A DNA stretch of 8,231 bases from Giardia intestinalis (lineage: Eukaryota): NCBI GenBank assembly GCA_000002435.2, contig AACB03000013.1. One strand, 5' to 3'. A program made the position numbers. The stretch's first letter is position 1. Each line of letters begins with the position of its first letter. Positions 1 through 3,000 of the stretch are shown here, in pieces.

Positions 1-3000
1 GGGAAGTGCCTTCCTTGCAACACGATAGATCAAGCATGTACCCAGTGTGAGGTTGATTCGACTACCAAAAGCCGAAGTGCACAGCTTGTGATAACAGTAA
101 GATCCCAGGACGGCCCTTGATGGGACCTCGACGTGCGTGACAAAAGACTACGCTGGATGTAAAGGCGCTGACGAGGCCCTATTTATGAAGGAGGACAAAA
201 CATGTGTTTTATGCAGTACCGTTTCAGCTGGAGCCGATCCAAATTACCAGGGCATTGCGGGTAAGAAGTGTACCAAGGACTCGGCGACACCGCCGACCTG
301 CTCGGAGTGCCTCGATGGATACTACAGTAGTGGTAGTGGTACGGTTACATGCACCGCTTGTCCAGGTGCTAACTGTGCCACCTGCACTCAAACTGGCAAT
401 GATAAGTGTGATACATGCAAGCCTGGGTTCTTCATGAAAGGCAATGGTCCTACTGGTGAGTGCGTTGCTTGTGATAATGCACAGGGGGGCATCGATGGGT
501 GTGCCGAGTGCACAAAGGAGTCTACAGGACCTCTCAAGTGCACAAAGTGCAAGCCTAACAGGAAGCCCGCTGGAACCTCAGACAACTATACATGCACAGA
601 GAAGACCTGCGAGGACCCCACGGCTTGTGGGGGGACAGCTGGCTTTGTGATGCCATCGTATAGATGATCAGGGCACCACAAAGCACTACTGTTCCTATTG
701 TGGAGATAGTTCACAAGCTCCTATAGATGGTCTCTGTGCTAGTGAGGCTCAAAAGGCTGGGAATACTTGTGCTAATGGTGTATGTACACAGTGCACCAAC
801 AACTACTTCCTATACATGGGTGGCTGTTATAGCACTCAGAAGGCTCCTGGTAGCTTCATGTGCAAGACAGCAGGTAATACTGGGATCTGCACAGAAGCAG
901 CCAACAATAGGTACTTCGTAGTGCCTGGTGCATCCAACACTGATCAGTCTGTGTTGGCTTGTAGTAACCCCCTTGGCACACTGACAGGCACTGGTAATAC
1001 TGCTAAGGCATATGTGGGGGTAGAGGGCTGCTCCCAGTGTACAGCCCCAGCAGCTCTAACAACAGCTGGCATGACTGCTGCTGTGTGTACCTCCTGTGAC
1101 AATAGTAAGGTGCCCAACAAGGATGGCACTGGGTGTGTGACATGCTCTGACACCAACTGCAAGAGCTGTGTGATGGATAATATATGTGGGGAGTGTGTTG
1201 ATGGATACAGTCTAGAGGGTGGTAAGTGTGTGTCCTCTGGCGCCAACAGGGGCGGGCTCTCCACGGGGGCCATCGCGGGGATCTCCGTCGCTGTGGTCGT
1301 CGTCGTGGGGGGTCTCATAGGGTTCCTCTGCTGGTGGTTCATCTGCAGGGGGAAGGCGTGACTTAGGTAGTGAATGCTGTACAATGTGTGATAATGGGTA
1401 ATAGAGGGTGATAGTGTGATAGTGGAGTGTGATATGTACAAAGGCCAGTAATGGACTGTGCACTGCTTGTAAGACAGATAACAAGTACATATTCCAGAAC
1501 AGGGCAGACAAGGTGACTCCTGGTGGGGAGTGCATCTTGTGCTCTGATATCAAGGGAGCGAATGGATATACGGGAGTGGCCAACTGTCTCAAGTGTACGG
1601 CACCAGGGAATGCAGGACCTGCCACGTGTACAGAGTGTCAAGCAGGGTACTATAAAGATGGTAACGGTGCATGTGTCAAATGTCATACCGACTGCGAGAC
1701 GTGTAGTGGAACCGGTCAGAATGCATGCACCCTCTGCGTAGCGGGGAAGTACCTGAAGGGGACTGATTGTGTCGTAGCTGGCTCATGCACAGGCACACAC
1801 TATACTGACGAAGCTACCAGAACGTGCAAGGAATGTAGTACGATAGATCCCAGCTGTACCCAGTGTGAAGTTGATTCGACTACCAAGAAGCCGAAGTGCA
1901 GTAAGTGTGGCGATGATGGAACCAAGATCCCCAGGACGACCCTTGATGGAACCTCGACCTGCGTGGCGAAGAACTACGCCGGGTGTCAAGGAGCTGATAA
2001 CGGTCTCTTTATGACCGAGGACAACGTGTGTCGTTTGTGCAGTGATCCCGCAGCGTCGGATTCAGAACAAAAGAACAAAGGCATTGCTGGCTGTAAGGCT
2101 TGCACGAAGACAGCGAGTGCCAATCCAGCCTGCACAGAATGCCTGGAGGGATACATCGAGAACAGAAGCGGGGGCTTTACATGCGATCCGTGCGCTCCAG
2201 GCTGTGCGACATGCTCCAAGAAGGAAGATCCGAGTAAGTGCCTGACATGTAAGCAGGGTACTTCTTGAAGGATAGCTCCTCTGGTGAGTGCATCTCATGT
2301 AGTGACACAACCAAAGGTGGCATCGAGGGGTGTGCCGAGTGCACAAATAGTGGCACATTTAAGTGCACAAAATGCAAGGTGAACTACAGACCCAGTGGAG
2401 AACCTTCAACTGGGGTCACATGTACAAAGGCCTGTGAAGATGATACTGCGTGTGGTGGGACAGCAGGGGCCTGCGATGCTATAGTGATCGACAATGATGG
2501 AGTAGAGCATCATTACTGTTCCTATTGTGGGGATAGCAGTAAGTATCCTATAGATGGTCTCTGTGCTAGTGAGGCTCAAAGTAATACTTGTAACAACCAT
2601 GTCTGTGAGTCTTGTACTACAGGGTACTTTATGTATATGAATGGTTGTTACAAGGTTAATACAGAACCAGGTAGCCTCATGTGCAAGACATCAAGTAAGG
2701 AGGGTGTCTGTACAGAAGCAGCCAACAATAGATACTTCCTGGTTCCGGGGGCAACCAATGCTCAGCAGTCCGTGTTGGCATGTAGTAACCCCCTAGGCAC
2801 ATCAACAGGCACTGATAGTGCTGCTAAGGCATATGTGGGAATAGATGGCTGTTCAGCATGTACAGCCCCAGCAGGTCTGTCTGATGGTGGTATGACCCCC
2901 GCTGTGTGCACCTCCTGTGACAGTGATAAAAAGCCCAACAAGGATGGCAGTGGGTGTGTAGTATGCTCTGACACCAACTGCAAGAGCTGTGTGGTGGACG

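What the first reader, a model, noticed from the sequence alone, without database searches (positions are those of the whole stretch)
2254..2258. Every unit is frameshifted, always by a 1-nt shortening relative to paralogues. Systematic indel error versus a pseudogene repertoire.
Frameshift positions:
- A: ~70, ~104-107, ~660.
- B: ~2254-2258 (caggg vs caaggg).
- D: ~4358-4363 (ccc vs cccc in F).
- E: ~6449-6453 and ~6641-6648.
- F: ~7414-7417, ~7667, ~7721-7726, ~8044-8047, ~8124-8125.

In every case, restoring one base recreates a continuous VSP-like frame with conserved cysteine spacing. Where two copies exist (D/F), the lesions are at different sites and each is a deletion relative to the other. 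That is the signature of deletion-biased sequencing error (homopolymer undercalling) and is unexpected for independent mutational decay, because there are no accompanying substitutions.

If so, the real units have long intact ORFs of ~575-617 codons that still lack starts. If the indels are real, this is a degenerate pseudogene array. The distinction matters for the silent-cassette hypothesis.
Basis: inference. Interest (0 to 1): 0.55.

Follow-up and report, generated by a model that had tools for sequence, protein, structure and literature searches.

The report
Sequencing-error frameshifts in Giardia VSP array
The window is an ordinary head-to-tail array of Giardia surface-antigen (VSP) gene copies without start codons, and the one-base frameshifts that break every copy are almost certainly consensus sequencing errors and not real pseudogene lesions.

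Summary
All five VSP units are interrupted only by single missing bases: 14 frame-breaking events plus one in a spacer. Restoring one base per site gives continuous ORFs of 572-615 codons ending in CRGKA, with no internal stops.

- The two duplicate copies (3051-4477 and 6811-8231) differ by 8 one-base indels and 0 substitutions.
- All 14 frame-breaking events are -1. There are no +1 events, no other out-of-frame indels and no nonsense codons in 2,609 codons.
- Events cluster at the two ends of the window (P about 4e-4) and in homopolymer runs.
- At the flagged site (2254-2258), GenBank protein VSP S6 (AAN52101.1) matches unit B at 387 of 389 residues and reads straight through as KQGYF. Intact WB proteins match 40/40 flanking residues at three more sites and 38/39 at two.

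The underlying structure is a known G. duodenalis "linear array" of ψVSPs: no signal peptide, start codon or initiator, short repeat spacers, and a poly(A)-like signal after each stop.

No reads were available, so real lesions in A, B or E are not formally excluded.

The parts
1..1361 (+). VSP unit A. It is cut at its 5' end by the start of the window and ends in CRGKA plus a TGA stop.
   Evidence: Continuous 454-codon frame after four single-base restorations. The tail at 660-1358 is 97.4% identical to WB protein XP_001705182.1 (P0128).
67..71 (+). Unit A, missing base 1: 'accaaaagccg' against 'accaagaagccg' in unit B.
   Evidence: P0001 and P0006 read TTKKPKCT here.
104..106 (+). Unit A, missing base 2: CCC where unit B has CCCC.
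   Evidence: P0076 and P0005 read K(I/T)PRT here.
644..646 (+). Unit A, missing base 3: 'ggctttgt' where relatives encode G-S-C (ggc tct tgt).
   Evidence: P0001 and P0128 read TAGSCDAIV here.
660..661 (+). Unit A, missing base 4: 'gtatagat' against 'gta ata gat' (AA reduced to A).
   Evidence: P0001 and P0128 read DAIVIDDQG here.
1362..1431 (+). Spacer between A and B. It carries AGTGAAT 10 nt after the stop and degenerate 10-nt TGATAATGGG-type repeats, and is shorter than the other spacers.
1432..3182 (+). VSP unit B, 583 codons once corrected. Residues 194-583 correspond to GenBank VSP S6 (AAN52101.1).
2254..2258 (+). The flagged site: unit B is missing one base ('caggg' against 'caaggg'), which shifts the reading from frame 1 to frame 3.
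   Evidence: One search shows D identical for about 55 nt after the site. In one search, P0069 residues 1-83 match 2011-2259 in frame 1 at 100%, and residues 83-390 match 2256-3179 in frame 3 at 99.4%. One search shows P0020 and P0069 matching 40/40 flanking residues, with Q at the site.
3183..3280 (+). Spacer between B and D: AGTGAAT followed by 5.5 copies of TGATAATGGG.
3281..4998 (+). VSP unit D, 572 codons once corrected.
   Evidence: PF03302 match at E = 4e-38.
4360..4362 (+). Unit D missing base: CCC where copy F has CCCC at 8114-8117.
   Evidence: In one search, P0002 and P0099 read GAGYGPINGKC with identical flanks.
4999..5096 (+). Spacer between D and E. It differs from the B|D spacer by substitutions only, with no gaps.
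   Evidence: 4 substitutions and 0 gaps over 254 nt.
5097..6942 (+). VSP unit E, 615 codons once corrected.
   Evidence: The best database hit is DH protein P0021 at 66%.
6449..6452 (+). Unit E, missing base 1: CCCC where units A and B have CCCCC.
   Evidence: Relatives read ACSNPLGT here.
6641..6648 (+). Unit E, missing base 2: 'cgcactgt' where relatives encode C-(S/R)-H-C, most simply CC reduced to C at 6643.
   Evidence: P0106, P0041 and P0014 read GCSHCGAGDKCE here.
6943..7039 (+). Spacer between E and F. It is identical to the B|D spacer except for one missing G (GG at 6995-6996 against GGG at 3235-3237).
7040..8231 (+). VSP unit F. It is cut at its 3' end by the end of the window and is a duplicate of unit D that differs only by single-base gaps.
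7057..7058 (+). Unit F missing base in the ICTKAEGG leader: GG against GGG at 3298-3300.
7413..7416 (+). Unit F missing base: AAAA where D has AAAAA.
7666..7668 (+). Unit F missing base: T where D has TT.
7721..7726 (+). Unit F missing base: 'aatgtg' against 'aatagtg'. This site is not in a homopolymer.
8044..8047 (+). Unit F missing base: 'gagc' against 'gacgc'. This site is not in a homopolymer.
   Evidence: In one search, P0002 and P0099 read GACDAIVV with identical flanks.
8124..8125 (+). Unit F missing base: GG where D has GGG.
   Evidence: In one search, P0002 and P0099 read PINGKC.
3051..4477 (+). First copy of the duplicated block (B tail, spacer and unit D). Its second copy is 6811-8231.
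   Evidence: 0 substitutions and 8 single-base gaps. Identity begins abruptly at 3051/6811, inside the conserved region that encodes the transmembrane tail.

Best explanation
The window is a head-to-tail 'linear array' of Giardia duodenalis-type variant-specific surface protein units (ψVSPs). Each unit starts about 95-107 residues into a normal VSP, at ...ICTKA..., so it has no signal peptide, start codon or initiator element. Each runs as a long cysteine-rich ORF to the transmembrane segment and CRGKA tail, and is followed by a poly(A)-like AGTGAAT and a short 10-nt-repeat spacer.

The one-base 'frameshifts' are not biological lesions. They are residual single-base deletion errors of a consensus assembly, most likely long-read or pyrosequencing data that were poorly polished because the repeats cannot be mapped uniquely and coverage falls towards contig ends. 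The true units are intact ORFs of about 570-615 codons.

Shown: the anatomy, the error signature, and the intact reading of the same blocks in independent sequences. Inferred: the sequencing platform, and that the window spans a whole short contig.
For: 1. Duplicate copies 3051-4477 and 6811-8231 differ by 8 single-base gaps and 0 substitutions. If even 3 substitutions arise per indel, the probability that 8 of 8 differences are indels is 1.5e-5. Genuine divergence in the same array looks the opposite way: the B|D and D|E boundaries differ by 4 substitutions and 0 gaps, and unit pairs differ by 10-22 gap events that are all whole codons.
2. All 14 frame-breaking events are -1 (sign test 1.2e-4). 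No in-frame stop remains in 2,609 codons, although 4.1% of possible substitutions would create one.
3. 11 of 15 events lie within 1,300 nt of the window ends. Mean distance to the nearest end is 1,038 nt against 2,057 expected (P = 3.7e-4).
4. 5 of 8 D/F events lie in runs of 3 or more bases, which make up 11% of the sequence (P = 7e-4).
5. Independent sequences read through. VSP S6 (AAN52101.1, P0069) matches unit B at 387/389 residues with no gaps across 2254-2258. WB proteins P0002, P0099 and P0020 match 40/40 residues around the B, D and two F sites, and P0001 and P0128 read TAGSCDAIVIDDQG across both A sites.
6. A related DH array (L001) has intact ORFs of 605 and 739 codons and the same spacer motif.
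7. There is precedent. PMC7000408 reports genes truncated by frameshifts from PacBio homopolymer errors in the WB draft. [quoted passage not shown]
Against: - No reads, quality values or coverage were available, so no site is verified directly.
- Two of the eight D/F events are outside homopolymers.
- These array members are regarded as non-functional in the literature (PMC2996952, PMC7000408), so real lesions would not be selected against.
- For A, B and E there is no identical second copy in the window, and the intact comparators could be alleles or paralogues. P0069 differs from B at two other residues.
- A WB Sanger-era relative (P0128) carries its own shift at a different homopolymer run (G5 against G6 at 629-634). 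Such lesions therefore also appear in other data sets, for whatever reason.
- The end-clustering argument assumes that the window ends are contig ends.
Confidence: 0.84

Rival explanations
1. Mixed case. The F and D differences are assembly errors, but one or more of the lesions in A, B or E are genuine single-base deletions fixed in non-functional array members.
For: A, B and E have no identical in-window copy, so their lesions are polarised only against paralogues and database proteins. Array members lack starts and are thought to be non-functional (PMC2996952). P0128 shows a shift at another run in the WB Sanger data.
Against: The lesions in A, B and E have the same size, sign and homopolymer context as the demonstrable D/F events. 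A's four lie within 662 nt of the window start. Unit B is 99.5% identical to VSP S6, which is intact at the site. No nonsense codon or other out-of-frame indel accompanies them.
Confidence: 0.11
2. Genuine degenerate pseudogene repertoire. All of the single-base deletions are real mutations that have accumulated in silent VSP cassettes.
For: ψVSP arrays are real and common, with 208 ψVSPs reported in WB (PMC7000408). Homopolymer slippage is also a natural mutational mode.
Against: There are 0 substitutions against 8 indels between the D and F blocks. All 14 events are -1. There are no stops in 2,609 codons. All other length differences are whole codons. The events cluster at the window ends. 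The blocks are intact in independent sequences.
Confidence: 0.04
3. Biologically meaningful frameshifts. On this reading the cassettes are kept out of frame on purpose, or are decoded by ribosomal or transcriptional slippage, or the short runs act as phase-variable switches.
For: Only the regularity of the pattern supports this: the events are always -1 and often in runs.
Against: The sites share no motif or position. Two are outside runs, and two lie in a non-coding spacer or leader. The units have no start codon or signal peptide to be decoded from. I know of no such mechanism in Giardia.
Confidence: 0.01

Closest known systems
Linear arrays of vsp genes / ψVSP arrays of Giardia intestinalis WB (Adam et al. 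2010, PMC2996952; Xu et al. 2020, PMC7000408)
   Same: The units are arranged head to tail with spacers of about 70-100 nt. Downstream members have no PyAATGTT initiator, no proper start codon and no signal peptide. The 3' end is conserved and ends in CRGKA. Arrays typically fill contigs shorter than 10 kb. Neighbouring units include recent duplicates with long 100%-identical tracts, and there is mosaic sharing of blocks with complete VSPs.
   Different: The architecture does not differ in any way. This copy carries about 1.8 single-base gaps per kb, which I attribute to the assembly. Unit-level identity to annotated WB, DH and P15 proteins is only 61-81%, apart from B (VSP S6, 99%) and the A tail (P0128, 97%). 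The exact locus is therefore not among the annotated proteins.
Telomere-adjacent ψVSP arrays of Giardia muris (Xu et al. 2020, PMC7641422)
   Same: These are also tandem arrays of VSP copies without signal peptides, proposed as silent donors for recombination or gene conversion.
   Different: G. muris VSPs end in GCRGK, according to that paper. The units here end in CRGKA and are closest to G. duodenalis assemblage A sequences, so this is not G. muris. The chromosomal position of the window is unknown.
Homopolymer indel errors in long-read or pyrosequencing consensus assemblies (for Giardia: PMC7000408, with 85 indels corrected using Illumina reads; nanopore read profiles in PMC7048089)
   Same: The events are single-base, predominantly deletions, enriched in runs, without accompanying substitutions, and they truncate otherwise intact genes.
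   Different: Two of the eight verifiable events are outside runs. The platform and coverage of this sequence are unknown.
Silent-cassette antigenic variation systems (Trypanosoma brucei VSG pseudogene arrays, Pneumocystis MSG), as compared in PMC7641422
   Same: These are also arrays of promoter-less, start-less antigen gene copies that share mosaic blocks with complete genes.
   Different: In those systems many cassettes are truly degenerate, and donation into an expression site has been demonstrated. Here the degeneracy appears to be artefactual, and no donation event was tested.

Membership tests
Giardia variant-specific surface protein (Pfam PF03302) | Significant match to the VSP profile | tested here: met
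   Corrected unit D scores 131.7 bits against a cut-off of 31.4. The uncorrected ORFs 2265-3182 and 5121-6452 score 102.8 and 63.3 bits. All database hits are Giardia VSPs.
Giardia variant-specific surface protein (Pfam PF03302) | Cysteine-rich ectodomain with frequent CXXC motifs, and a GGCY motif | tested here: met
   Units are 11.5-13.5% Cys with 18-28 CXXC motifs each. GGCY is present in A, D, E and F; B has NGCY instead.
Giardia variant-specific surface protein (Pfam PF03302) | C-terminal hydrophobic anchor followed by an invariant CRGKA and a stop | tested here: met
   All four complete 3' ends read ...GFLCWWF(V/I)CRGKA*.
Giardia variant-specific surface protein (Pfam PF03302) | N-terminal signal peptide and an ATG start, as needed for a functional, expressible VSP | tested here: not met
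   Units align from residue 96-108 of full-length VSPs such as P0001 and P0027, whose relatives begin MFQLIPLFVASALMA. The first in-frame Met is at codon 75-347. Signal-peptide prediction itself was not run.
G. intestinalis linear vsp array / ψVSP array | Two or more vsp units in the same orientation, separated by very short intergenic regions (mean 60 bp, up to 241 bp) | tested here: met
   Five units lie on the + strand. The distances from each stop to the next unit are 70, 98, 98 and 97 nt.
G. intestinalis linear vsp array / ψVSP array | Downstream members lack the PyAATGTT initiator and a proper start codon | tested here: met
   There is no [CT]AATGTT on either strand of the window. The open frames begin directly after the spacer stops, without an ATG.
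G. intestinalis linear vsp array / ψVSP array | Transcriptional silence or non-expression | not testable with these tools
   No expression data were available. Each unit keeps an AGTGAAT motif 10 nt after its stop.
Consensus sequencing artefact (single-base deletion errors) | Single-base events, one direction, without accompanying substitutions between otherwise identical copies | tested here: met
   8 gaps and 0 substitutions over 1,419 matched bases. 14 of 14 frame-breaking events are -1.
Consensus sequencing artefact (single-base deletion errors) | Enrichment in homopolymer runs | tested here: met
   5 of 8 D/F events lie in runs of 3 or more, against 11% of bases (P = 7e-4). However, 2 of 8 are outside any run.
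Consensus sequencing artefact (single-base deletion errors) | Not reproduced in independent sequence of the same gene | tested here: met
   This was tested at protein level only. VSP S6 (AAN52101.1) matches B at 387/389 residues and is intact at 2254-2258. WB proteins are intact, with identical flanks, at the D and F sites and at A sites 3 and 4. No independent DNA copy was found.
Consensus sequencing artefact (single-base deletion errors) | Low coverage or low quality at the sites, and a comparable frameshift rate in single-copy genes of the same assembly | not testable with these tools
   The source assembly and its reads are unknown. The only indirect evidence is that events cluster at the window ends.

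The most novel reading that the evidence does not exclude
The single-base deletions are genuine and reflect a deletion-biased mutational process specific to silent VSP cassettes, for example slippage during repeated gene conversion or break repair within the array. That process would keep the cassettes untranslatable while preserving their coding information as donors for mosaic VSP formation.
Probability: 0.05. Interest if true: 0.5.

Novelty: not a real feature. Interest (0 to 1): 0.1.

Why it matters
The finding matters mainly as a quality-control result. If the frameshifts were taken at face value, this locus would be scored as a decayed pseudogene array. That would inflate estimates of VSP pseudogenisation and mislead arguments about whether Giardia keeps intact silent cassettes. 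Read correctly, the units are intact ORFs of 570-615 codons that lack only the 5' end. This is the already described ψVSP linear-array state, and it is compatible with the published reservoir or gene-conversion hypothesis. It is also a practical warning: repeats such as VSP arrays escape short-read polishing, so frameshift counts in them should not be interpreted without read support.

Tried and rejected
- **Window ORFs in public assemblies.** Exact look-ups of 3305-4558 and 4264-4998 found nothing on record. Near-identical ORF products were also absent from three whole-database protein searches, apart from P0069, which has no contig.
- **Independent DNA copy.** The JGI metagenome scans found nothing, either with protein-derived patterns or with an exact 30-mer.
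- **Baseline from the WB PacBio reference.** Look-ups of P0002 and P0099 failed.
- **Other loci.** L002 and L003 hold single VSPs, not arrays. L004 and L005 (GS, 454-based) were of little use and show oddities of their own.
- **G. muris origin.** Rejected, because that species has a GCRGK tail.
- **Single +1 insertions in unit A.** I considered one insertion in place of each pair of deletions. This was rejected because the intermediate frames encode the conserved PKCTACDNSKI and CDAIV segments.
- **Provenance of VSP S6.** The literature search returned only false hits on 'vsps61', and the supplement of PMC2996952 does not mention it.
- **Absence of stop codons.** As an argument on its own it is only moderately strong: P = 0.05 at 5 substitutions per indel.

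Full report
**What is in the window.** The + strand carries five head-to-tail units of a cysteine-rich ORF. Four of them end in ...GFLCWWF(V/I)CRGKA followed by TGA, with stops at 1361, 3182, 4998 and 6942. Each unit after the first begins with the motif ATATGTACAAAGGC, which encodes ICTKA, at 1432, 3281, 5097 and 7040. Unit A is cut by the window start and unit F by the window end.

The corrected units match Pfam PF03302 (Giardia VSP) far above its cut-off. All database relatives are Giardia duodenalis/intestinalis VSPs. The CRGKA tail excludes G. muris, whose VSPs end in GCRGK (PMC7641422).

**Checking the observation.** A frame walk shows that each unit is one continuous frame broken only by single missing bases. 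Unit A has four, at 67-71, 104-106, 644-646 and 660-661. Unit B has one, at the flagged 2254-2258. Unit D has one, at 4360-4362. Unit E has two, at 6449-6452 and 6641-6648. Unit F has five in its body plus one in the ICTKAEGG leader at 7057-7058, and one more lies in the spacer before F at 6995-6996. With one N inserted per site, no in-frame stop remains in 2,609 codons, whereas the other frames hold 12-59 stops per unit.

Local alignments to paralogues show a lone one-base gap at each site inside well-matched sequence. A single +1 insertion would not preserve that motif.

**The duplicate copies.** The block 3051-4477 (B tail, spacer and unit D) recurs at 6811-8231 (E tail, spacer and unit F). 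Over 1,419 matched bases there are 0 substitutions and 8 one-base gaps, seven in the second copy and one in the first, all at different places. If natural mutation gave even three substitutions per indel, 8 of 8 differences being indels would have probability 1.5e-5.

Genuine divergence within this array looks the opposite way. The B|D and D|E boundaries differ by 4 substitutions and no gap. Unit pairs differ by 10-22 length differences that are all whole codons.

**Direction, context and position.** All 14 frame-breaking events are losses of one base (sign test 1.2e-4). Five of the eight D/F events, where the full-length state is known, lie in runs of three or more bases. Such runs make up 11% of the window (P = 7e-4). 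Two events lie outside any run.

Eleven of the 15 events lie within 1,300 nt of a window end. Mean distance to the nearest end is 1,038 nt against 2,057 expected (P = 3.7e-4). That is what consensus quality does at the ends of a short contig. Mutational decay has no reason to follow the boundaries of a window. That the window is a whole contig is my inference from its odd length and from units being cut at both ends.

**Independent sequences.** Residues 194-583 of unit B equal GenBank AAN52101.1 ('variant-specific surface protein S6', P0069) at 387 of 389 comparable residues, without gaps. tblastn splits that protein exactly at the flagged site: residues 1-83 match 2011-2259 in frame 1 at 100%, and residues 83-390 match 2256-3179 in frame 3 at 99.4%. 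The protein reads KQGYF where the window is shifted. WB protein XP_001707733.1 (P0020) also matches 40/40 flanking residues there.

WB proteins P0002 and P0099 match 40/40 residues around the D site and two F sites and are in frame. P0001/P0126 and the WB protein XP_001705182.1 (P0128, 97.4% identical to 660-1358) read TAGSCDAIVIDDQG across both downstream A sites. The remaining sites are spanned in frame by relatives at 65-93% local identity.

These comparisons are at protein level, and the comparators may be alleles or paralogues. No second DNA copy of the locus could be found.

**Comparison with what is known.** Head-to-tail 'linear arrays' make up over half of WB vsp genes. Their spacers average 60 bp, their downstream members lack the PyAATGTT initiator, and they mostly sit on contigs shorter than 10 kb. 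The authors speculate that they are non-functional reservoirs or discarded genes (PMC2996952). [quoted passage not shown] It also reports that PacBio homopolymer errors truncated genes by frameshifts until Illumina correction, with small extra contigs assembled from leftover reads (PMC7000408).

The window fits this description:
- There is no initiator motif on either strand.
- The first in-frame Met is at codon 75-347.
- The units align from residue 96-108 of complete VSPs.
- AGTGAAT occurs exactly four times on the + strand, each 10 nt after a unit's stop. I recall this as the Giardia polyadenylation signal AGTPuAAPy.
- The spacers consist of TGATAATGGG-type repeats.
- A related array from isolate DH (L001) shares the spacer motif and has intact open frames of 605 and 739 codons.

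**Verdict.** A mixed case, in which some A, B or E lesions are real, cannot be excluded without reads (about 0.11). A fully genuine pseudogene array is unlikely (about 0.04). The array architecture is already known, and the frameshift pattern is best treated as not a real feature. Interest is low.

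Noticed in passing
window 3051-4477 and 6811-8231: This is a two-unit, higher-order duplication with a period of about 3,760 nt. 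Its left boundary falls abruptly inside the conserved region that encodes the transmembrane tail: there are many substitutions before 3051/6811 and none after. It could be a real recent duplication or gene conversion, or the contig end re-traversing the same repeat at low coverage.
   Followed up: partly
window 1369, 3190, 5006, 6950: AGTGAAT, which fits AGT[AG]AA[CT], occurs exactly four times on the + strand, each 10 nt after a unit's stop codon. So the start-less units keep what looks like the Giardia polyadenylation signal.
   Followed up: partly
window 3208-3285, 5024-5101, 6966-7044 (shorter version at 1383-1424): The spacers are built from about 5.5 degenerate copies of a 10-nt unit, TGATAATGGG. 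The A|B spacer is 27 nt shorter than the others. The DH array (L001, 12113-12200) has the same motif, followed there by an extra FMGGCYK-coding stretch that is missing here.
   Followed up: partly
window 629-634, versus protein P0128 (XP_001705182.1): The WB Sanger-era protein begins 'MHREDLRGPHGLWG'. That is the out-of-frame translation of the CTEKTCEDPTACGG block, and it then joins the VSP frame. This implies G5 in that sequence where the window has G6. Its annotated start is therefore itself a product of a homopolymer shift, at a different site from the window's lesions.
   Followed up: partly
window about 259-264 (unit A): Unit A reads GIAG-KKCTKD, where unit B and the WB protein P0005 read GIAGCK(A/K)CTK. 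This is an in-frame loss of one codon that removes a conserved cysteine. Unlike the single-base gaps, it could be a genuine difference.
   Followed up: no
units A, B and D/F, versus P0001/P0126, P0020 and P0002/P0099: The units are mosaics. Blocks of 40 to more than 200 residues are identical or nearly identical to complete, signal-peptide-bearing WB VSPs, while overall identity is only 50-81%. This fits the segmental exchange between arrays and complete genes reported in the literature.
   Followed up: partly
window 2011-3182 (unit B), versus AAN52101.1: The deposited 'VSP S6' protein starts at the first internal ATG of this array unit (MTEDNV...) and has no signal peptide. The named GenBank VSP therefore appears to be a conceptual translation of a ψVSP array member. 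Its provenance could not be traced in the paper library.
   Followed up: partly
L005 (GCA_000498735.1, AHHH01000229.1), genes 118-1446(-) and 3212-5104(+): Two annotated VSPs of this assembly end '...GFLCWCLCATRRNDTRWAADNRT*' in place of '...GFLCWWFVCRGKA*'. That looks like a one-base shift inside the conserved tail of that assembly.
   Followed up: no
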